Source: Oscillospiraceae bacterium
Lineage (GTDB): Bacteria; Bacillota; Clostridia; Oscillospirales; Ruminococcaceae
Reading direction: 5' to 3'
DNA: 64,000 nt
NCBI GenBank assembly: GCA_021201235.1
Contig: JAJQFI010000024.1
Location: 266,657-330,656, forward strand
In this document: positions 16,767 to 40,794 of the stretch, in pieces
How the letters are laid out: every line of letters begins with the position of its first letter
How positions within the stretch are numbered: the stretch's first letter is position 1
Position numbers and translations under genes: made by a program
Notes under the pieces: model-generated
Database searches by the model: none
What the model saw: only the letters and a program-made list of their open reading frames with translations
Told to the model about the DNA's origin: nothing

Positions 16767-16795
16767 TTGACAAAAGCGGCATTACGGGATATAAT
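16767..16795 (+). promoter_or_regulatory. Consensus sigma-A promoter upstream of the MFS gene
   Basis: TTGACA, 17-nt spacer, TATAAT, all exact. Confidence 0.7.
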
Positions 16796-16923
16796 GGAGA
16801 CAATATTTAAAAGTGAGGCACAATAATGCGTTGATCTGAATTTAAACACCATAATTTCGAAAGGCATGAGTTTCATGCTTGTTCGTCGTGTTTAAATTCT
16901 TATTTTTAAGGAGCGTATTAATT

Positions 16924-18079
16924 GTGTCTTTTTATTTTAATAGATTCAACTGCCTGCAGCTTTTCAACGGGCTTGTCTTTTATGCGCCGGTGGCGTTGCT
17001 CGTCAGAACTCAGGCGGGAATGACCGTCTCGCAGTTTTTGCTGTTGCAAGCTGTATTATCAATCGTAATCTTTGCGGGAGAGGTTCCCGCCAGAATGGTG
17101 ACCGACAGAATCGGCTATAAAAAACTCGATAGTCCTGTCGCAACTGCTTCTTCTCTCGGCAAGAGCCTGCCTGATGGCGGCATTTCTCATGAAGAGCCTT
17201 CCCCTGTTCGTCCTTGAAGCCGCACTTGAAGGGCTTTCAAACGTCTTCTACTCGGGGACCTACGACGCTTATCTCTACGGCGTTTACGGCGAGGAGGAAT
17301 ACTTGCGGAGAAGCACCCTTGCCAATAATTTCGGGACGACGGGATTTATTCTGAGCACCCTGCTCTACTACGTTTTCTACGCCGTTTTCGGAATGGTGGG
17401 GCTGCTGGTTTCGACTGTGGTTTCGGGCTTTCTGGCGCTACTCTGCTCGTTCGGGCTTGAAAAAGAGAAGTCCAAACCCGAAAAGCAGGAAAAGAGCTTG
17501 CCTGAGGTCTTCAGAAGCCTGCTTAAGAGCCGTGAGCTCTGGGTTATGATGCTCGTGTCGGCGTGCCTCACGATGGCGATGCTGTTTATAAACTTCTTCT
17601 ACGTCGACAAACTGATGGCTGTCGGGCTTGACGAAAAGCTGATGACACCGATAATTTTGGGCTATTCCGTGGTCGAACTGCTGAACGCAAGAATTGCCAA
17701 GCGTATCAACTCGAAGAATCAGAAGATTTTCTTCGCTGTTTCGGGTCTTATTCTGAGCTTCGGCTTGATTCTGTTCGGCGTATTGAGTGGCGCTATGCCG
17801 GTTGTTATCTTAATGCTTATCCTGCCACTTCTGGTCGATATCCCTTCGGTGATACTCTCAAAGTACGAAAACGACCTCATCGACAGCATTGGTGCCGAAG
17901 AAAATTGGGCGACGGTTCTGTCGGTATTCAGCATGGGCGGAAGCCTCCCCGAAATAGCGATGCTTCTTATCTCGTCGGCTCTGTCGGGAGCAGGAACGGC
18001 GGTGTGCTTTATAGCTTTGGGCATTGCGATAGCCTTTATTTTACCTACATTTTGCCTTGACAACATGCACAAAAAATGA
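16924..18079 (+). pseudogene. MFS transporter interrupted by a +1 frameshift at an A6 run
   Basis: Frame 1 encodes TM1-2 and the motif VTDRIGYKK up to 17124. Frame 2 continues from 17126 with SIVLSQLLLLSARACLMAAF... to 18079. Frame 2 is closed by TGA at 17099-17101, so the indel lies within 17119-17126. Confidence 0.7.
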
Positions 18080-33808: not shown

Positions 33809-34693
33809 TTAAATTGAATACCATATCGAGGTGCTTCCCGCCGGCAATGTAAGTCCCGTCGACTCCACCGGCAAGCCTATTTCGTTGCTCGAGACCTTGC
33901 CGCCGAATTTCGGAATCAGCACACTCGAGAGAATATAGCCCATAACCGATGCCGAAAGCCCGGTTGTGTAGCTGTTCAGCACGAAGAAGAGCGGTTTTTC
34001 GCTCAGAACGCCTGCCGTAAGCTTGACTAAATCGTAGACGTTGTCCTCGAGCTTCCATATCTCGCCCGAGGGTCCCCTGCCGTAGCTCGGAGGATCCATG
34101 ATTATGCCCTCGTAGCGGCTGGATCTCTTGATTTCACGCCTTACGAACTTCTCGCAGTCGTCAACTATCCATCTTATCGGCTTCTCGGAAAGCCCCGACA
34201 AAGCGGCGTTTTCGCGAGCCCATTGAACCATGCCCTTTGAGGCGTCGACGTGGCAGACCTCCGCCCCGGCGCCCGAGCACGCAAGCGTTGCCCCGCCGGT
34301 GTAGGCGAAGAGATTCAGGACCCGAACCTTGTCGGTCTTTACCCTCTCGCTGATAAGCTCGCCCGTCTTCTCCCAGTTCACAGCCTGCTCGGGGAAGAGC
34401 CCTGTGTGCTTGAAGCCTGTCGGGTGGACTTTGAACCGGAGATTCCCGAAATATTGCGAGCTATAGCCGACCGTCCAGCTCTCGGGGAGCTTTTTTAAAT
34501 ACTCCCACTGCCCGCCACCCTTAGATGAACGGTGGTACACGGCGTTTGCGCTCTGCCAGAGCGCAGTCTTTTCCGTTTTCCATATAACCTGCGGGTCGGG
34601 GCGGATGAGCCGGATATCCTTCCAGCTCTCAAGCCTTTCGCCGTCAGATGCGTCAAGTAATCTATAGTCCTTCCAGCCGTCAGCCGTTCTCAT
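33809..34693 (-). CDS. Class I SAM-dependent (RlmI-like) methyltransferase
   Basis: Start at MRTADGWKDY. Contains ..VLNLFAYTGGATLA.. and ..IIMDPPSYG.. Confidence 0.7.
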   Translation of the reverse strand: MRTADGWKDYRLLDASDGERLESWKDIRLIRPDPQVIWKTEKTALWQSANAVYHRSSKGGGQWEYLKKLPESWTVGYSSQYFGNLRFKVHPTGFKHTGLFPEQAVNWEKTGELISERVKTDKVRVLNLFAYTGGATLACSGAGAEVCHVDASKGMVQWARENAALSGLSEKPIRWIVDDCEKFVRREIKRSSRYEGIIMDPPSYGRGPSGEIWKLEDNVYDLVKLTAGVLSEKPLFFVLNSYTTGLSASVMGYILSSVLIPKFGGKVSSNEIGLPVESTGLTLPAGSTSIWYSI

Positions 34694-36062
34694 TGTCCGT
34701 TTCCTGCTCTCCGATATGCTCCGCAACCGTCTGAGCGGCGGCCTGAGCATACTGATAAATGATTTCTTCGTCCCTGCCCTCAGCCGTAACTCTGATGAGC
34801 GGCTCGACAGACGATTCTCTTATGTAAATTCTTCCGTCGCCCGCAAGCTTTTCGGAGCAATATTCGAGCATCTCCGTAATCTCGGGGACGGATTCCCACA
34901 TGTTCTTGCATTCGTGCCTTATCTTGACATCGACATCGATTGACGGATAAGGCGTGAAGATTCCGGCGATTTCCGAAAGTCTTCTACCGGTTCCAGCCAT
35001 GACCTCGAGCATTTTAGCAGCCGCCAGTTCTCCGTCTGCTGTGTCGGGAACCTTTCCGAAGAGAAATCTTCCACTTCCGTTGGCACCGAGGTTATAGCCG
35101 TCGGTCATCATCCGCTCGTGAATTGAGCGCTCCGAAACTCCCGAAGCCGTCGAAGTGACGATTCCGTTGTCCTTTGCCCATCTGAAGAAGCCGAGGTTTG
35201 TTGCCCTCGTGACGACGCAGGTGTTTGCGGAAAGGGTTTTCTCCCGCTTCATGAAGTATGCAAGTGCCGCAAGCATTCTGTCGGGGTCGATTGGCTCGCC
35301 CTTTTCGTCGACCATCAGGCAACGCGAGCCGTCGCCGTCAAGGGCGATTCCGCAGTGCGCTCTCGAATCGACAACCGCCTTGCCGAGAGCCGTCAGGTCC
35401 TCGGTGCCGCAGTCTTCGTTTATATTCACGCCGTTTGGCTCAACATTAAGAAACTTCGCGGTGATTCCAAGCCCCCGGAAGAACTTGACCGCCGTTTCAT
35501 AAGCCGCACCGTTGGCGCAGTCTACGACGATTCTGAGCCTGCCCAAATCCGTCTGAATGTCCCTTAAGAGATATCTTACATAGTCCCACTCGGCGTTCTT
35601 TTCGTTCAGGATGTCGCCCAAGTTTTCAGGGCTCGCGTTCGGGATTTCGTCGGGAGCTTCGAGGACAAGCCGCTCTATCTCCGACTCGACGGCGTCGTTA
35701 AGCTTGTCGCCGGAAGCCGAGAAAATCCGGATGCCGTTGAATTCATAGCTGTTATGGGAAGCGGAAACCATGATTCCCGCATCGGCGCCGTACTTGACCG
35801 TCAGATACGCAACCGCAGGGGTCGGAACAACTCCCAAAAGGTCGGCATCTCCGCCTGCGGAGCAGATTCCGGCAATCAGAGCCGACTCAAGAATCTTGCA
35901 GGAGGAACGGGTGTCCTTGCCTATAAGAATTTTCGCACGGCGATGGTTTCTCTTTGCGAGCTCATAAGCGCAAGCCCTGCCGATAGCCATAGCAAGCTCA
36001 CAGCTGAGGTCATTAAGAGCCTCGCCCTTGACAGCCCCATCAGCACCGAATAATCTTCCCAT
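34680..36062 (-). CDS. Phosphoglucosamine mutase-like (alpha-D-phosphohexomutase family), divergent motifs
   Basis: Start at MGRLFGADG. Phosphoserine loop SASHNSYEFNGIRIF, metal loop DGDGSR, sugar loop GANGSGR, phosphate loop RESSVEPLIR. Confidence 0.7.
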   Translation of the reverse strand: MGRLFGADGAVKGEALNDLSCELAMAIGRACAYELAKRNHRRAKILIGKDTRSSCKILESALIAGICSAGGDADLLGVVPTPAVAYLTVKYGADAGIMVSASHNSYEFNGIRIFSASGDKLNDAVESEIERLVLEAPDEIPNASPENLGDILNEKNAEWDYVRYLLRDIQTDLGRLRIVVDCANGAAYETAVKFFRGLGITAKFLNVEPNGVNINEDCGTEDLTALGKAVVDSRAHCGIALDGDGSRCLMVDEKGEPIDPDRMLAALAYFMKREKTLSANTCVVTRATNLGFFRWAKDNGIVTSTASGVSERSIHERMMTDGYNLGANGSGRFLFGKVPDTADGELAAAKMLEVMAGTGRRLSEIAGIFTPYPSIDVDVKIRHECKNMWESVPEITEMLEYCSEKLAGDGRIYIRESSVEPLIRVTAEGRDEEIIYQYAQAAAQTVAEHIGEQETDNENG

Positions 36063-36087
36063 TTTAACAGCCCCTGTCTTTTTAGAT

Positions 36088-37125
36088 TTATAGCATTGTT
36101 TGTCCGTCTCGTAAGAGTCCCAAGTGCTTGTACGCCAGGTCTGTGGCGCATCTGCCTCTTGGGGTTCTCGAGATGAAGCCAAGCTGCATAAGATACGGCT
36201 CGCATACGTCCTCGAGGGTTACCGCCTCTTCGCCGATAGCCGAAGCAAGCGTCTCGAGCCCGACGGGTCCGCCGTTGTAGCCCTTGATAATCATTGTGAG
36301 CATCCGCTTGTCCATCGTGTCAAGCCCGAGGGAGTCAATCTCCATGCGGTCAAGGGCAATCTTTGCGATGTCGAGGGTTATAACGCCGTTGCCCATGACG
36401 TCGGCGAAGTCTCTTACACGCTTAAGTAACCTGTTCGCAATTCGGGGCGTGCCTCTTGAACGCTTGGCAATCTCCAAGGCTCCGTCCTTGTCGCAGATGA
36501 CGCCCAATATGTCCGCCGAGCGAAGGATAATCTCGCAGAGCTCCTCGTGGGTATAAAGCTCGAGCCTCTGGGTGATTCCGAATCTGTCACGAAGCGGAGA
36601 GGTGAGCTGTCCCGCACGGGTCGTGGCGCCGATAAGCGTAAATCTCGGGACGTCAAGGCGAATTGTCCTTGCGCCCGCTCCCTTGCCGATGATGATGTCG
36701 ACGGCGAAGTCCTCCATTGCAGGGTAAAGAACTTCCTCGATTTCACGGGGGATTCTGTGAATCTCGTCAATGAAGAGGACGTCACCCGCCTGAAGGTTCG
36801 TCAGTATTGCGACGATGTCGCCCGGCTTTGTGATAGCCGGACCGGATGTTATGCGTATATTAACGCCCATTTCGTGGGCGATAATTGCCGAGAGTGTAGT
36901 TTTGCCGAGTCCCGGAGGTCCGTAGAGAAGAACATGGTCGAGCGGCTCGCCGCGCTTTTTCGCCGCATCGATATAAATCTTCATGTTCTCCTTGACCTTT
37001 TCCTGACCGATGTATTCGTTCAGACTTTTCGGTCGGAGGGATAGCTCCGCCTCGTCGGTATCCTCCGCTAAAAGCTCGGTGCCGACAAGCCTTTTTTCGA
37101 GGTCAAACTGTTCCGATTCAATCAT
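36088..37125 (-). CDS. ruvB: Holliday junction branch migration helicase RuvB
   Basis: ..[13 protein letters not shown].., ..FIDEIHR.. Confidence 0.95.
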
Positions 37126-37140
37126 GCCGCTTCACCTCTC

Positions 37141-37746
37141 TTAAAATCTGCCGGACGCGAGAGTCCGAAGAGCTCTCTTGATGATTTCGTCCGTTTCAAG
37201 CTCACCCGGGCACTTTGCAACCGCCTGAGCCGCTTCCGACTGGGAATATCCGAGAACGACAAGAGCCGCAATGGCTTCCGCCTTGCTCTGGTCGCCGACC
37301 GCCGCAGTAATCGCTCCGACCTCGCCCGATTCGTCAAGGACTGCGCCCTTGGCGACCTTGTCCTTGAGCTCCATAACAATTCTCTGGGCGATTTTTGCGC
37401 CGATGCCCTTGATTTTTGAGAAAGCCTTCGTGTCGCCGGAAGCAATCGCCAGAGCAACCGCTGCTGGAGTGAGGCTCGAAAGGATTGCAAGAGCATACTT
37501 CGAGCCGACGCCGCTGACGGAAGTCAGGAGCTTGAAGCACTCAAGCTCATCTTTTGTGAAAAAGCCGAAGAGGTCGATTGCGTCCTCTCTGACCGCCATA
37601 TAGGTATAGAGCGTGCATGATGACATATTCGAGACCGAGGTTATAGTATTCATCGTGGTCTTGCAGGCATAGCCGACTCCCCCGCATTCAATAACGCAGA
37701 GGTCAGGCTCGGTGTGTATTATATTTCCCGTGAGGCTGTAAATCAT
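37141..37746 (-). CDS. ruvA: Holliday junction DNA-binding protein RuvA
   Basis: MIYSLTG..; HhH motifs GVGSKYALAIL and IKGIGAKIAQRI. Confidence 0.9.
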   Translation of the reverse strand: MIYSLTGNIIHTEPDLCVIECGGVGYACKTTMNTITSVSNMSSCTLYTYMAVREDAIDLFGFFTKDELECFKLLTSVSGVGSKYALAILSSLTPAAVALAIASGDTKAFSKIKGIGAKIAQRIVMELKDKVAKGAVLDESGEVGAITAAVGDQSKAEAIAALVVLGYSQSEAAQAVAKCPGELETDEIIKRALRTLASGRF

Positions 37747-37776: not shown

Positions 37777-38268
37777 TTAATTCAATCCGAAAACCCGGGA
37801 GCTCGCATAGTGCCCGTGGGTTATTGCAAGTGCCAGTGCGTCCGCCGCATCGTCCGGCTTGGGGATTTCTTTCAGCTTCAGCATTGACCGTGTCATCTCC
37901 TGAACCTGCTTTTTCTCCGCTCTGCCGTAGCCGACGACCGAGTTCTTGACCTGCAAAGGTGTATATTCGTAAATCTTGATTTCGTGCTTGTTCGCCGAAA
38001 GGAGGATGACTCCCCTCGCCTGCGCCACGTCGATGGCGGTCGTGTGGTTGGTGTTGAAATAGAGCTTTTCGAGCGAGATTGCGTCCGGCTTGTACATTTC
38101 GATAAGCTCGTTCATGTCGTTAAAGATAACCCCGAGACGTTCGTCAAACTGCATGTCCGGCGTCGTGGTGATGGCGCCGTAGCCCTTGACGGCGAAGTTT
38201 CTCCCGTCATAATCCAAGACCCCATATCCGACAATCGCATATCCCGGGTCGATTCCAAGTATCCTCAT
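37777..38268 (-). CDS. ruvC: Crossover junction endodeoxyribonuclease RuvC
   Basis: MRILGIDPGYAIVGYGV.. Confidence 0.9.
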   Translation of the reverse strand: MRILGIDPGYAIVGYGVLDYDGRNFAVKGYGAITTTPDMQFDERLGVIFNDMNELIEMYKPDAISLEKLYFNTNHTTAIDVAQARGVILLSANKHEIKIYEYTPLQVKNSVVGYGRAEKKQVQEMTRSMLKLKEIPKPDDAADALALAITHGHYASSRVFGLN

Positions 38269-38387
38269 TCCGCACCCCTGTTTTTAAAATACATATTACG
38301 CCATTTTCTACTTTCCTGAATACTAATTATAGTCCTAAATGGGGGAGATGTCAAGCTTTAAAGGCGGTTTGATTTGCTTTTGAAGAA

Positions 38388-38417
38388 AACAAAAAAAGCT
38401 GTTGACAAAACAACAGC
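38388..38417 (-). terminator. Intrinsic terminator on the minus strand, overlapping the -35 of the antisense promoter
   Basis: GCTGTTG-acaaaa-CAACAGC (38398-38417) followed on the minus strand by UUUUUUUGUUUUC. Confidence 0.65.
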
Positions 38418-38430
38418 GATAGGATATAAT
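38402..38430 (+). promoter_or_regulatory. Consensus sigma-A promoter of the small antisense RNA
   Basis: TTGACA, 17-nt spacer, TATAAT, all exact. Confidence 0.7.
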
Positions 38431-38436
38431 GAAAGT

Positions 38437-38549
38437 GGTGAGAGGTTACCTGAAGCGGAAATTCAGGCAACGGTCACTCTCTCCCACAAAAACTGGTTTT
38501 ATGTTTGAGACTGCCGCGCTGAATCAATCAGGCGCGGTTGTTTTTATTT
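38437..38549 (+). ncRNA. About 110-nt small RNA, candidate type I antitoxin (convergent with and overlapping the peptide gene 3' end)
   Basis: Bounded by a consensus promoter and the terminator CCGCGCTGA-atcaa-TCAGGCGCGG + TTGTTTTTATTT (38514-38549). Internal hairpin CCTGAA..TTCAGG. No ORF with an SD. Confidence 0.45.
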
Positions 38550-38630
38550 CAGGTGAGAGCCCAAGCTAACACCCATGCTAATAGCAGTCAGAACAACAAG
38601 GAACAACTGCAGGACATCCGAAATAGTCAT
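38544..38630 (-). CDS. 28-aa hydrophobic peptide, candidate type I toxin (holin-like-toxin-like)
   Basis: MTISDVLQLFLVVLTAISMGVSLGSHLK. SD GGGAGG 8 nt upstream of the ATG. Own consensus promoter. Below the ORF-track length cutoff. Confidence 0.5.
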   Translation of the reverse strand: MTISDVLQLFLVVLTAISMGVSLGSHLK

Positions 38631-38683
38631 AGGTATTCGCCTCCCTTCGCAGGGGAAAGAGCAACCAACCTCTCACTGTTGAC

Positions 38684-38712
38684 ATTATAACATATAAACC
38701 GACTGCTGTCAA
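38684..38712 (-). promoter_or_regulatory. Consensus sigma-A promoter of the peptide mRNA
   Basis: Minus strand: TTGACA (38707-38712), 17-nt spacer, TATAAT (38684-38689). Confidence 0.7.
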
Positions 38713-38741
38713 CATAATAAACCAAAAATCAAAAAACACCG

Positions 38742-38770
38742 TTGACAAGCCGCTTCAATTCCTATATAAT
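38742..38770 (+). promoter_or_regulatory. Consensus sigma-A promoter of comEC
   Basis: TTGACA, 17-nt spacer, TATAAT, all exact; about 30 nt upstream of the comEC SD. Confidence 0.7.
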
Positions 38771-38802
38771 ATCAGTATCACCAAACGAAAGGGAGTGGTC
38801 GG

Positions 38803-40794
38803 ATGCGGCACGAGGCGGGGTTGGCTGCCGGTGGTGCGCTGGTGGGACTGCTCTTTTGTTTTTATGCCTCTTTCCCGGCTCGGATTGCGCTTATCGCCGT
38901 GGCGGCGGTGCTTTTCGTCGCCGGTTTGTTTGCTTTGTCGGGAAAACTTTGTCGGGCGGTTTCAACCGCTCTTTTATTTTTACTGATTTTCAGTATCTAC
39001 GGCACCGTCTGGTTCTATATGCGTGTCGACCGCCTTACGGCTCTTTCGGGCGAAACGGTCACCGTTTCGGGAATCGTCACCGACTGCTCGGACAGCGACA
39101 CCGCCGAAGTCACCATAAGCGGCAACATCGGCGGGATCCGAGGCAAGGTGATTGTTTACTTAAACGGCGCCAACATCTCCTCGGGCGACAGGGTTTCGTT
39201 CGAGGCTACCGTCTCGGAGCTCACCGACAGCGCGAGCTTCAACGCGAAATCCTATTACTACCCGAAGGGCATCTTCGTCCGTTGCTCGCAGGCGGGAAGC
39301 GTCACGGTCACCAAGGCGACCGGCATTTACAAGCTCTACGGCGAGATAAGGGGTTTCCGGGAACAGCTGACCACCACCTTCTGCTCCTACGTCGGGCTCG
39401 ACGAGGGTCAGCTTCTTTCGAGCATGCTCTGCGGGACGAGCGACAGCCTCGACAGTGGCGTAAAGTCTTCCCTCAACCGAAGCGGCATCGGGCATCTGCT
39501 GGCGGTTTCGGGGCTTCACGTCAGCATAATAGCCGCACTGGTCGCATTCTTGCTGAAGCTCCTTCGGGTGCCGAAAGCCGTGACTTTTGCAATATCCGAA
39601 GCTATCATGGCGCTATTCGTCGTCTTCTCGGGGATGAGAATCTCGGCGGTGCGGGCGTTCATCATGATGACGATATTCCTGCTTGCGTCAATCGTCCGGC
39701 GGGAGTATGACGCCGAATCGTCGCTCGGGGTCACGATACTCATAATGCTCATAGCTTCGCCCTACAGCGTCGCTGACGGCTCTTTCCTGTTGTCGATTGC
39801 GGGAGTTTTCGGAATTTGCATCGTCGAGCCTGCCGTATCAAAGGCGTTCGGAGTCAAGGGAAAGCTCGGAAGAACCGCCATGTCCGCAGTTTGCGTCTAC
39901 CTCTGCGTTATGCCTGTTTCGGTGTTCGTCTTTGACGAGATTTCCCTCGTCTCGATTATAACAAACATAGTTCTGACACCGTTCTGCACCGTCGCACTCG
40001 TTCTGTCGCTCATATTTGCGGCTTGCGGAGTTCCTGCGGCGTTGTCACCTCTCATCGAGATTGCCGGAGTCATCGCCCGATGGGTGATAAGAATCTGCGA
40101 ATGGATTTCCGACCTCGGCTTTACCTACATCCCGATAAAATATGCCGCCGTGCCGATTATAGTAATCGCACTGACGGCGGCTGTGGTTCTTGTCCTGATT
40201 GCGACGAAGAGCGTCCGCAAGGCAACTTTCTCGGCTCTCGGGGCGTTCGCTGTGACGGTTGCCGTTGTCTTCTGCATGAACTTCTACGACATGAATGCAA
40301 CGCACCTCAAGATAATCTCCGACGGCGACGGGTATCTTCTCGTGGTAACTCAAGGCGGCAAGTGCATCGCCATCGACTCGGACGGCTCCTATTCAACCGA
40401 CTTCGGCTATTTTCTCCGTGAGGAGGGCTTGACCGCCGTCGACGCCGTCGCTATTCTTGAGAACGGCACAGCGAACTATTCCAAATATTTAAGTGCGTCG
40501 GTCACTCCCAACATGATTCTCTTCGACACGAGCGCGTCGACGCACAGTAATTCCGACACCGAGCTCCACAAGCTCACCGACGGGACGATTCTAAGCCTCG
40601 GCGACGCTGAGATTGAGCTTTCGGGCGGTTGCGCCTTTGTCAATATCGGCGACAAGTCGGTTGTCATCACCGAGTCGGAAACCCCGCAGGATGGGTATTA
40701 TATCTATATTTCGGACGGCGTGTGCGTGACGAATCTGTTTGGGGAGATAATGGTGGCGAGGGATGGCACGGAGATAACATTGTCCGATAGATAA
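38803..40794 (+). CDS. comEC: ComEC/Rec2-family DNA internalization channel protein
   Basis: Competence domain ..RSGIGHLLAVSGLHVSII..; polytopic; 663 aa. The C-terminal domain lacks an HxHxDH motif. Confidence 0.85.
   Translation: MRHEAGLAAGGALVGLLFCFYASFPARIALIAVAAVLFVAGLFALSGKLCRAVSTALLFLLIFSIYGTVWFYMRVDRLTALSGETVTVSGIVTDCSDSDTAEVTISGNIGGIRGKVIVYLNGANISSGDRVSFEATVSELTDSASFNAKSYYYPKGIFVRCSQAGSVTVTKATGIYKLYGEIRGFREQLTTTFCSYVGLDEGQLLSSMLCGTSDSLDSGVKSSLNRSGIGHLLAVSGLHVSIIAALVAFLLKLLRVPKAVTFAISEAIMALFVVFSGMRISAVRAFIMMTIFLLASIVRREYDAESSLGVTILIMLIASPYSVADGSFLLSIAGVFGICIVEPAVSKAFGVKGKLGRTAMSAVCVYLCVMPVSVFVFDEISLVSIITNIVLTPFCTVALVLSLIFAACGVPAALSPLIEIAGVIARWVIRICEWISDLGFTYIPIKYAAVPIIVIALTAAVVLVLIATKSVRKATFSALGAFAVTVAVVFCMNFYDMNATHLKIISDGDGYLLVVTQGGKCIAIDSDGSYSTDFGYFLREEGLTAVDAVAILENGTANYSKYLSASVTPNMILFDTSASTHSNSDTELHKLTDGTILSLGDAEIELSGGCAFVNIGDKSVVITESETPQDGYYIYISDGVCVTNLFGEIMVARDGTEITLSDR

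What the first reader, a model, noticed from the sequence alone, without database searches (positions are those of the whole stretch)
38388..38712. Candidate type I toxin-antitoxin: 28-aa hydrophobic peptide mRNA convergent with a small RNA, both from perfect consensus promoters
Seen in sequence:
- Minus strand: an exact TTGACA-17-TATAAT promoter (38684-38712), a leader in which CCCU pairs with part of the SD (AGGGAGG), then a 28-aa ORF (38544-38630).
- The peptide is MTISDVLQLFLVVLTAISMGVSLGSHLK.
- Plus strand: a second exact consensus promoter (38402-38430) drives an ORF-less RNA of about 110 nt.
- That RNA ends at a terminator (38514-38549) overlapping the peptide stop codon.
- A strong minus-strand terminator (38388-38417) lies beyond the small RNA. 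The peptide mRNA 3' UTR could therefore be fully complementary to it.
- Both transcripts are predicted to begin with the same 10-mer GUGAGAGGUU (38438-38447; inverted copy at 38667-38676).

Inference:
- The 3' end of the peptide mRNA would be complementary to its own 5' end. That would allow a hok-like fold-back lock.
- The overall layout matches 3'-overlapping type I systems such as txpA/RatA and bsrG/SR4.
- The peptide resembles the short 'holin-like toxin' family of Firmicutes.
Basis: partly seen in the sequence, partly recalled or inferred. Interest (0 to 1): 0.65.

Follow-up and report, generated by a model that had tools for sequence, protein, structure and literature searches.

The report
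New type I toxin-antitoxin cassette family
Between ruvC and comEC of an uncultured gut Clostridia bacterium sits a 330-bp cassette that encodes a 28-residue membrane peptide and a convergent antisense small RNA; it belongs to a multi-copy, unannotated family and is built like a type I toxin-antitoxin system, though toxicity is untested.

Summary
There are two convergent exact TTGACA-17-TATAAT promoters, a 28-aa hydrophobic ORF with a strong, partly sequestered SD, and an sRNA of about 115 nt. That sRNA is fully complementary to the mRNA 3' UTR. Both RNAs have a terminator, and both start with the same 10-mer.

The cassette is a family, not a one-off:
- Two further complete cassettes and three partial ones turned up in JGI metagenome contigs.
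- At least six contigs of one related genome carry pieces of it.
- The peptides are homologous (32-46% identity, shared LTA[FI]S[IM]G motif).
- Natural variants are enriched for synonymous changes (16 of 29; 26% expected; p = 0.0008).
- All three full-length mRNAs are predicted to fold their first 24 nt onto the 3' UTR (z -5.3 to -5.7). That is the same site the sRNA binds.

No Rfam, Pfam, NCBIfam or PADLOC family matches, including Hol-Tox. No predicted protein in 5.8 billion clusters or 1.8 billion representatives is similar.

Best reading: a new, unannotated type I toxin-antitoxin family with 3' overlap as in bsrG/SR4 and a hok-like fold-back. Toxicity and transcript ends remain untested.

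The parts
38684..38712 (-). Promoter of the peptide mRNA: exact TTGACA-17-TATAAT with a TG extended -10
   Evidence: The same promoter type with TG occurs in L125 (110-139) and L126 (296-324).
38631..38677 (-). 5' UTR of the peptide mRNA. It holds the 5' 10-mer GUGAGAGGUU (38676-38667), GGUUGCUCUUUCCCC with the anti-SD (38666-38652) and the SD AGGGAGG (38646-38640).
   Evidence: The 24-nt core is the same in L125 and L126 except that they have one C fewer in the C-run, and it has raised depth in runs X1-X3 and X5. Paralogue loose ends keep GGGAGGTGA + 5-7 nt + ATG.
38544..38630 (-). 28-aa hydrophobic peptide ORF (candidate toxin), MTISDVLQLFLVVLTAISMGVSLGSHLK
   Evidence: Family peptides align at 32-46% identity. 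Best 17-aa Kyte-Doolittle window is 2.16. Variants are 6 synonymous / 6 conservative here and 10 / 7 in the L126a type.
38388..38543 (-). 3' UTR of the peptide mRNA. It is fully complementary to the sRNA and contains the fold-back partners 38472-38484 and 38438-38446 for mRNA nt 12-24 and 2-10.
   Evidence: The 5' end is paired with P > 0.94.
38388..38417 (-). Intrinsic terminator of the peptide mRNA (stem 38417-38398 plus T7). Its loop and 3' arm contain the -35 box of the sRNA promoter.
   Evidence: The same nesting is seen in all family copies (alignment A2). This is the highest-copy segment in runs X1-X3.
38402..38430 (+). Promoter of the antisense sRNA: exact TTGACA-17-TATAAT
   Evidence: Exact equivalents occur in L125 (415-387) and L126 (597-569).
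38437..38552 (+). Antisense sRNA of about 115 nt (candidate antitoxin): a long 5' hairpin (38437-38485), a spacer and a terminator hairpin (38507-38543) with a U-run
   Evidence: Fold. The consensus structure of four family sRNAs has 29 pairs, 3 of them with compensatory changes. No Rfam family matches.
38514..38549 (+). sRNA terminator. It overlaps the peptide stop codon. On the minus strand the same hairpin follows the stop but has no adjacent U-run.
38356..38784 (.). Block skipped by contigs of related strains in runs X2 and X3: the cassette plus the comEC-facing promoter. Possible insertion/deletion unit.
   Evidence: joint 38355->38785. Tentative, because only 30 nt lie on the shorter side.

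Best explanation
The locus is a chromosomal type I toxin-antitoxin-like cassette of a previously unannotated, multi-copy family. It is found in uncultured gut Oscillospirales (Acutalibacteraceae-like) bacteria.

What the cassette encodes (predicted from sequence):
- A consensus sigma-A promoter makes a minus-strand mRNA of about 287 nt (38677 to about 38390). It encodes a 28-aa single-helix membrane peptide.
- A convergent consensus promoter makes an sRNA of about 115 nt. The sRNA is perfectly complementary to the mRNA 3' UTR.

Predicted state of the mRNA on its own:
- It is held translationally poor and 5'-protected by three elements conserved in the family.
- Its first 24 nt fold back onto the 3' UTR.
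- An upstream CCCU pairs with the SD.
- The AUG region pairs with the codons of the conserved S-[MI]-G motif.

Role of the sRNA (inference, by analogy with bsrG/SR4 and txpA/RatA):
- The sRNA 5' domain is a look-alike of the mRNA 5' end. Both have the same promoter spacing, the same GUGAGAGGUU, and then GGUCACUCUCUCCC versus GGUUGCUCUUUCCC. The sRNA therefore competes with the mRNA 5' end for the same 3' UTR site.
- Binding would create a duplex of about 115 bp, a substrate for RNase III.
- Binding would free the mRNA 5' end for 5'-dependent decay.
- Binding would tighten the SD hairpin. Predicted P(SD unpaired) falls from 0.15-0.22 to 0.02-0.05.
- The net result would be no peptide while the sRNA is present. 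If sRNA supply fails, the peptide would insert into the membrane and arrest growth.
For: - Anatomy.
- Family: two more complete cassettes with the same parts in the same order (L125 100-454; L126 286-640). There is also a diverged one (L126 10204-10503), an orphan sRNA (L125 2786-2978), a second sRNA type (L125 3059-3183) and a tandem tail (L125 27-99).
- Multi-copy: the segments 38392-38454 and 38653-38700 have 2-10 times the depth of their flanks in runs X1-X3. In X1, at least six different contigs of equal depth (24-30) carry pieces.
- Coding: the peptides align. Every paralogue 5' end seen keeps SD + ATG. Variants are 16 synonymous of 29 against 26% expected, p = 0.0008. No stop or frameshift was listed inside the codons (one variant changes the L126a-type stop codon to a lysine codon).
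- Hydrophobicity: each peptide has one hydrophobic helix (17-aa KD window 2.2-2.4), and three of the four end in basic residues.
- RNA: the full-length mRNAs fold with z = -5.3, -5.4 and -5.7 and the same 5'-3' pairing (P paired > 0.94). SD and AUG are sequestered in all three, through different sequences in the window than in L125/L126. The sRNA structure is conserved.
- Expression hint: in transcriptome library X4 the cassette's unique core (38487-38643) is a 100%-identical contig at depth 29. Neighbouring genes are at depth 3-9 and comEC at 0.
- Precedent: SR4 overlaps the 3' end of bsrG mRNA, promotes its decay and extends the SD-sequestering helix (PMC3834814; PMC8309996).
Against: - No experiment shows toxicity, either transcript, or their ends.
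- The X4 evidence is an unstranded assembled contig, and DNA carry-over cannot be excluded.
- The peptide has no detectable similarity to any known toxin family. It also lacks the cluster of C-terminal charges typical of many type I toxins: the window copy has a single terminal K and net charge 0.
- Both promoters are equally consensus-like, and the toxin promoter even has the TG extension. In many systems the antitoxin promoter is the stronger one.
- Only three or four distinct sequences were available, so covariation support is thin. The fold-back partner is also constrained by the sRNA's own structure, so its conservation is not independent evidence.
- Variant sites taken from paralogous contigs are not independent events.
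Confidence: 0.68

Rival explanations
1. The peptide is a small membrane protein that is not a toxin, for example a regulatory or accessory subunit of a membrane complex. The convergent sRNA is an ordinary cis-antisense regulator that tunes its expression.
For: The evidence shows coding selection and a membrane helix, not toxicity. Net charge is 0 and only one basic residue ends the window peptide. Small membrane proteins are common in Gram-positive bacteria (PMC10730256, listed).
Against: Several features are typical of selfish toxin-antitoxin modules and unusual for housekeeping small proteins. There are many paralogous copies per genome in unrelated intergenic sites, plus tandem copies and orphan sRNA copies. 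Related strains seem to differ in presence or absence. Synteny with any partner gene is lacking. Translation is blocked by three layers.
Confidence: 0.17
2. The element is a non-coding repeated intergenic element: a mobile terminator/promoter 'insulator' unit with convergent transcription. Its RNAs act only as RNAs, or not at all, and the ORF is incidental.
For: The most repeated parts are the terminator/-35 module and the two promoter-proximal segments, not the ORF. Orphan copies without an ORF exist. Four consensus promoters crowd the spacer and may serve the neighbouring genes.
Against: The ORF is kept at the same place with SD + ATG in every paralogue end seen. The peptides are homologous where the DNA has diverged below 80%. 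There is a synonymous excess and a codon-position bias of 9:6:2 for positions 3:1:2. No stop or frameshift was listed inside the codons of either ORF type.
Confidence: 0.07
3. The promoters, ORF and hairpins co-occur by chance in an AT-richer spacer.
For: None beyond the general point that consensus scans are not evidence of function.
Against: No exact promoter is expected in shuffles of 64 kb. The composite pattern is matched twice here, with 0 expected. The whole architecture recurs in independent metagenome contigs.
Confidence: 0.01

Closest known systems
bsrG/SR4 (and bsrE/SR5, txpA/RatA) of Bacillus subtilis: 3'-overlapping type I toxin-antitoxin systems
   Same: A short hydrophobic peptide mRNA is transcribed convergently with an antisense RNA of about 100-220 nt that overlaps its 3' end. 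The SD is partly sequestered in a short helix. For SR4, antitoxin binding at the 3' end lengthens that helix and also triggers decay (PMC3834814). Here the predicted SD accessibility drops in the same direction when the 3' UTR is masked.
   Different: No sequence similarity of the peptide or the RNA was found. Here the sRNA lies entirely within the 3' UTR and reaches only the stop codon. The mRNA 5' end pairs with the very site that the sRNA binds. The -35 box of the sRNA promoter sits inside the mRNA terminator hairpin. No prophage context was seen.
hok/Sok of plasmid R1 and its chromosomal homologues
   Same: The full-length toxin mRNA is predicted to be locked by a long-distance pairing between its extreme 5' end and a 3'-terminal element (fold-back inhibition). 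This keeps it stable and poorly translated (background in PMC8309996).
   Different: Sok binds the 5' leader (the mok translation-initiation region), not the 3' fold-back element. There is no mok-like overlapping reading frame here. Hok is about 50 aa and unrelated. The host is Gram-positive.
par (fst RNA I / RNA II) of Enterococcus faecalis pAD1
   Same: Toxin and antitoxin RNAs are transcribed convergently, and one hairpin ends the sRNA and lies just after the toxin stop codon. The peptide is about 30 aa. Translation is dampened by a 5' structure.
   Different: In par the two RNAs pair through repeats at their 5' ends that give complementary RNA segments (own knowledge). Here the shared 10-mer gives identical, not complementary, 5' ends, and pairing is through the 3' UTR. 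The Fst motif APxxxGxxx is absent.
Type I toxin-antitoxin modules of Clostridioides difficile (CD2517.1/RCd8 and others)
   Same: These are the only experimentally characterised type I systems in the class Clostridia. They have small membrane toxins with cis-antisense RNAs and occur in multiple paralogous copies (PMC6563280).
   Different: The C. difficile toxins are 34-59 aa and have charged C-termini. Their promoters are often SigB-dependent, and they sit in prophages or next to CRISPR arrays. No sequence relation was found. No such system is reported for Oscillospirales in the searched literature.
   Same: Both are peptides of about 30 aa from Firmicutes with a single transmembrane helix and a polar or acidic residue near the N-terminus.
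   Different: No HMM match was found for any of the four family peptides at E <= 10. The resemblance is at the level of composition only.

Membership tests
Type I toxin-antitoxin system (general class) | Small (<60 aa) hydrophobic, membrane-helix peptide ORF with its own SD | tested here: met
   The ORF is 28 aa, has the SD AGGGAGG, and its best 17-aa KD window is 2.16. It is conserved as a peptide.
Type I toxin-antitoxin system (general class) | An antisense RNA gene overlapping the toxin mRNA, with its own promoter and terminator | tested here: met
   At sequence level there is an exact promoter, a conserved structure and a terminator, recurring in the family. Transcription itself is only hinted at.
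Type I toxin-antitoxin system (general class) | Both RNAs are actually made, with the predicted ends | tested here: inconclusive
   RNA library X4 holds a 100%-identical 157-nt contig of the core at depth 29, against 0-9 for the neighbours. It is unstranded, and its ends are set by the assembly.
Type I toxin-antitoxin system (general class) | Peptide is toxic when over-produced, and the RNA neutralises it | not testable with these tools
   Needs expression experiments.
TxpA/BsrG-type (3'-overlapping) systems | Antitoxin overlaps the 3' end of the toxin mRNA, with convergent transcription | tested here: met
   The sRNA 38437-38552 lies within the mRNA 3' UTR 38388-38543 and reaches the stop codon.
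TxpA/BsrG-type (3'-overlapping) systems | Toxin sequence homologous to TxpA/BsrG | tested here: not met
   No Pfam or NCBIfam family at E <= 10. tblastn against phage genomes finds no match. The N-terminal likeness (MT[VI]xE/DxL) is recalled from memory only.
Hol-Tox (Pfam Hol_Tox) | Match to the family HMM | tested here: not met
   Zero families for the window peptide and three relatives.
hok/Sok | 5'-3' fold-back in the full-length mRNA | tested here: met
   Prediction only. Nt 2-24 are paired to the 3' UTR in three cassettes, with z -5.3 to -5.7.
hok/Sok | Antisense RNA targets the 5' leader/mok; toxin is a Hok homologue | tested here: not met
   The sRNA is complementary to the 3' UTR. No significant trans pairing to the 5' UTR was found (z -0.7, +1.1, -0.6). 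There is no Hok HMM hit.
Known RNA families (Rfam 15) | Covariance-model match for the sRNA or the leader | tested here: not met
   Only sub-threshold chance hits with E >= 0.9. Nothing at gathering score in the cassette.

The most novel reading that the evidence does not exclude
This is a new, unannotated, genome-wide multi-copy type I toxin-antitoxin family. Its antitoxin sRNA is an evolutionary and structural copy of the toxin mRNA's own 5' end (same promoter, same first 10 nt, same CUCUYUCCC arm). It works by displacing that 5' end from a 3' fold-back element. That would merge the hok-type lock and the bsrG/SR4-type 3' antisense into a single switch. In addition, the cassettes spread into intergenic spacers and bring consensus promoters to neighbouring genes, here comEC.
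Probability: 0.3. Interest if true: 0.7.

Novelty: new variant of a known kind. Interest (0 to 1): 0.55.

Why it matters
[quoted passage not shown] This peptide is absent from 5.8 billion predicted protein clusters. In the searched literature none is described for Oscillospirales, a dominant and mostly uncultured group of gut Clostridia.
- A multi-copy family with consensus promoters would be a useful marker of strain variation.
- It would offer a compact natural example of an RNA switch in which an sRNA competes with the mRNA 5' end for a 3' element.
- It could supply parts (strong promoters, a terminator with a nested promoter, a counter-selection peptide) for genetics in gut anaerobes that lack tools.
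- If the cassette really carried in the promoter now facing comEC, it would also show how such selfish modules rewire neighbouring genes.

Tried and rejected
1. Hol-Tox or any curated toxin/defence family. Pfam, NCBIfam and PADLOC gave nothing for the four peptides. The only sub-threshold hits (Ost5, Gip immunity) are hydrophobic noise.
2. Known RNA family. Rfam gave nothing.
3. Conservation next to ruvC. Eighty related genomes (RuvC at most 69% identical) have neither the cassette nor comEC there. The cassette is not syntenic.
4. First metagenome scan with the exact terminator 20-mer: 0 hits.
5. A loose promoter + GTGAGAGG pattern in viral contigs gave 41 unrelated strong phage promoters. Family-specific patterns in viral contigs gave 0 hits or one chance hit. 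There is no evidence of phage carriage.
6. Protein searches:
   - A word-index search with three concatenated family peptides (a device to pass the 40-aa minimum) found nothing.
   - phmmer of the peptide plus two upstream residues against 1.84 billion representatives gave 0 hits at E <= 0.001.
   - tblastn or blastn against plasmids and phages found nothing beyond promoter-like matches.
7. The idea that the sRNA's CUCUCUCCC pairs in trans with the SD. Duplex energies are no better than shuffles, so it was rejected.
8. The 46-aa plus-strand ORF. It starts inside the -10 box and its ATG is lost in paralogues, so it was rejected.
9. Exact-protein look-up of RuvC gave only near-identical strains with the same spacer, 1-2 mismatches. 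This gave no useful variation.
10. The divergent promoter next to each cassette as part of the unit. In L126 it simply drives a normal membrane-protein gene, so this is not a general rule.

Full report
**1. Setting**

The finding lies in the 534-bp spacer between ruvC (37777-38268, minus strand, first gene of ruvC-ruvA-ruvB) and a comEC-like competence gene (38803-40794, plus strand). The best RuvC match among 185,579 species genomes is 69% identical and comes from an Acutalibacteraceae MAG. The window therefore comes from an uncultured Oscillospirales-type gut bacterium that is not represented there. Near-identical copies of the locus occur in three Logan assemblies.

**2.

- Both promoters are exact TTGACA-17-TATAAT sites. 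The window has five such sites, none is expected in shuffles, and four of them lie in this spacer.
- The 28-aa ORF, its SD AGGGAGG and the upstream CCCCU are present as described.
- The minus-strand terminator 38417-38398 plus T7 is present.
- The sRNA terminator hairpin overlaps the stop codon.
- The 10-mer GTGAGAGGTT lies exactly 7 nt after each -10 box.
- The only plus-strand ORF of note (46 aa) starts inside the -10 box. It loses its ATG in every other copy of the element.

**3. It is a family, not a singleton**

Laying assembled contigs of public runs on the region gave the first sign:
- The segments 38392-38454 (mRNA terminator, sRNA promoter and sRNA 5' end) and 38653-38700 (mRNA 5' UTR and -10 box) have 2-10 times the depth of their flanks.
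- In run X1, several different long contigs of equal depth (24-30) each carry a copy.

Scans for further copies gave the following:
- A scan of JGI metagenome contigs with the exact terminator 20-mer found nothing.
- A degenerate pattern, TATAAT-N7-GTGAGAGGTT-N4-28-RCTCTYWC, matches the window twice with 0 expected.
- That pattern found three metagenome contigs carrying two distinct complete cassettes, L125 (= L127) and L126.
- A profile built from the three cassettes found more copies in the same contigs:
  - a diverged cassette (L126 10204-10503);
  - an orphan sRNA with only the last codons of an ORF (L125 2786-2978);
  - an sRNA of a second type (L125 3059-3183);
  - the tail of a tandem upstream copy (L125 27-99).

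In every copy the -35 box of the sRNA promoter sits in the loop and 3' arm of the mRNA terminator hairpin. Both promoters are exact consensus in L125 and L126 as well. The toxin-side promoter carries the TG extension each time.

**4. The ORF is a gene**

The four peptides align at 32-46% identity to the window peptide. They share either an N-terminal MT[IT]S[DE]VL or the core LTA[FI]S[IM]G[YV][TS][VL]GS:
- MTISDVLQLFLVVLTAISMGVSLGSHLK (window)
- MEILSIVLEVLALLLTAFSIGYTVGSNQKK (L125a)
- METLSIVLEVIALLLTAFSIGYTVGSNQKK (L126a)
- MTTSEVLLLLSLVFTVVFKMFDIWSDNRKR (L126c)

Further evidence for coding:
- Loose ends of further paralogues in four runs all keep GGGAGGTGA, 5-7 nt, then ATG GA[GT] (MEI..., MDL..., MEIADIL...), even where the DNA no longer aligns.
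- Variants seen in contigs are 10 synonymous / 7 non-synonymous for the L126a type and 6 / 6 for the window type.
- Together that is 16 of 29 synonymous against 26% expected (binomial p = 0.0008). Codon positions 3:1:2 carry 9:6:2 of the changes.
- Almost all replacements are hydrophobic-for-hydrophobic, and no stop or frameshift was listed inside the codons; one variant in X1 turns the stop codon of the L126a type into a lysine codon.
- These sites are not independent events, so the p-value is indicative only.
- Each peptide is one hydrophobic helix (17-aa KD window 2.2-2.4), and three of the four end in basic residues.

**5. RNA anatomy and the likely mechanism**

The sRNA has a conserved long 5' hairpin, a spacer and a terminator.

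The three full-length mRNAs fold far better than shuffles (z -5.3, -5.4, -5.7) and adopt the same architecture:
- Nt 2-24 pair with the 3' UTR (P paired > 0.94).
- CCCU pairs with the SD.
- The rest of the SD and the AUG pair with the codons of the S-[MI]-G motif about 50 nt downstream.
- The window and L125/L126 form this last helix with different sequences on both sides (AAUACCUAUG/CAUGGGUGUU versus GCUAAUGGAGA/UCUCUAUUGGU).

The mRNA 5' end and the sRNA 5' domain look like copies of one another. They share the promoter spacing and the first 10 nt, then read GGUUGCUCUUUCCC versus GGUCACUCUCUCCC, with a hairpin inserted in the sRNA. The sRNA and the mRNA 5' end would therefore compete for the same 3' UTR site.

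Masking that site, to mimic a bound sRNA, changes the predictions as follows:
- The mRNA 5' end is released; P(unpaired) rises to about 0.45-0.48.
- SD accessibility falls from 0.15-0.22 to 0.02-0.05.

This is the direction reported for SR4 on bsrG mRNA, where a 4-bp SD helix grows to 8 bp and the antitoxin also promotes decay (PMC3834814).

My inference is that sRNA binding gives an RNase III substrate, exposes the 5' end to 5'-dependent RNases and tightens the SD block. These steps are predictions, not observations.

The alternative that the sRNA pairs directly with the SD in trans was tested and is no better than chance.

**6. Expression hint**

In a bat-gut transcriptome library (X4) the unique core of the cassette (38487-38643) is a 100%-identical contig at depth 29. 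Contigs of the neighbouring genes have depth 3-9 and are only 95-97% identical, and comEC is absent. This fits strong transcription. However, the contig is unstranded, assembly-limited, and not proof against DNA carry-over.

**7. Comparison with known systems**

- Nothing in Rfam, Pfam, NCBIfam or PADLOC matches. The Hol-Tox suggestion fails its one testable criterion.
- No similar predicted protein exists in the 5.8-billion-cluster collection or among 1.84 billion representatives. This is expected in part because 28-30-aa ORFs are rarely called.
- Functionally, the closest relatives are the 3'-overlapping B. subtilis systems (bsrG/SR4, txpA/RatA) and, for the fold-back, hok/Sok. The combination in which the antisense RNA targets the fold-back element itself is not one I know of in the described systems (own knowledge).
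- The review of type I systems in Clostridia lists functional modules only for C. difficile and, for other clostridial species, only in-silico homologues and predicted candidates; Ruminococcaceae and Oscillospiraceae are not mentioned in it. A literature search pairing type I toxin-antitoxin with these taxa listed no paper among its top ten that contains both.

**8. Mobility**

- The cassette is absent next to ruvC in 80 relatives.
- Contigs of related strains in X2 and X3 jump from 38355 to 38785, skipping the cassette and the comEC-facing promoter. Only 30 nt lie on the shorter side, so this is tentative.
- The family occurs in tandem and as orphan sRNA copies.
- No phage or plasmid link was found.

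**9. Verdict**

This is a well-supported in-silico candidate for a new type I toxin-antitoxin family. It is a new variant of a known kind, of moderate interest. Toxicity, antitoxin action and transcript ends are still to be shown.

Noticed in passing
window 38326-38770: Four of the window's five exact TTGACA-17-TATAAT promoters lie in this one 534-bp spacer. Besides the two cassette promoters, one faces ruvC (38354-38326, -) and one faces comEC (38742-38770, +).
   Followed up: partly
window 38726-38787: The comEC-facing promoter is preceded by an A-run and CCGTTGACAA, like the family's terminator/sRNA-promoter module (alignment A2). It also lies inside the 429-bp block that related strains skip. 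The cassette may have supplied comEC with its promoter. The resemblance is weak and partly generic.
   Followed up: partly
window 38355/38785: Contigs in runs X2 and X3 join 38355 directly to 38785. This suggests an 'empty site' allele lacking the cassette in a relative whose ruvC 5' region is about 86% identical. Only 30 nt lie on the shorter side of the joint.
   Followed up: partly
window 38487-38643 compared with 34339-37149: In RNA library X4 the cassette core is 100% identical to the window, while flanking gene contigs from the same run are only 95-97% identical. Either the cassette is more conserved than its neighbours or it was exchanged recently.
   Followed up: no
L125 2960-3080 and 2700-2790: GC-rich palindromic repeats (for example GCCGCCGTGACGAGCGCCGCCC and CTCCCCTTGACAGGGGAG) flank the orphan sRNA copies and replace the toxin ORF. 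They look like a second kind of intergenic repeat.
   Followed up: no
L126 10204-10640: The diverged paralogue (peptide MTTSEVLLLLSLVFTVVFKMFDIWSDNRKR, type-B sRNA starting AGAGAAGCGG) has no recognisable consensus promoter for its mRNA. Only a GTGAGAG remnant remains upstream. It may be a decaying toxin gene with an intact antitoxin.
   Followed up: partly
viral loci L081-L121: Many phage contigs carry consensus promoters followed 6-8 nt later by GTGAGAGG (41 hits), often as ACCTTGTGAGAGGTT. They are unrelated to the cassette, but the motif may be a favoured initial transcribed sequence.
   Followed up: no
window 16767-16930: The fifth exact consensus promoter (16767-16795, +) precedes a leader of about 130 nt with a hairpin (16858-16890), upstream of an ORF starting near 16925. 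No Rfam family matches at gathering score.
   Followed up: no
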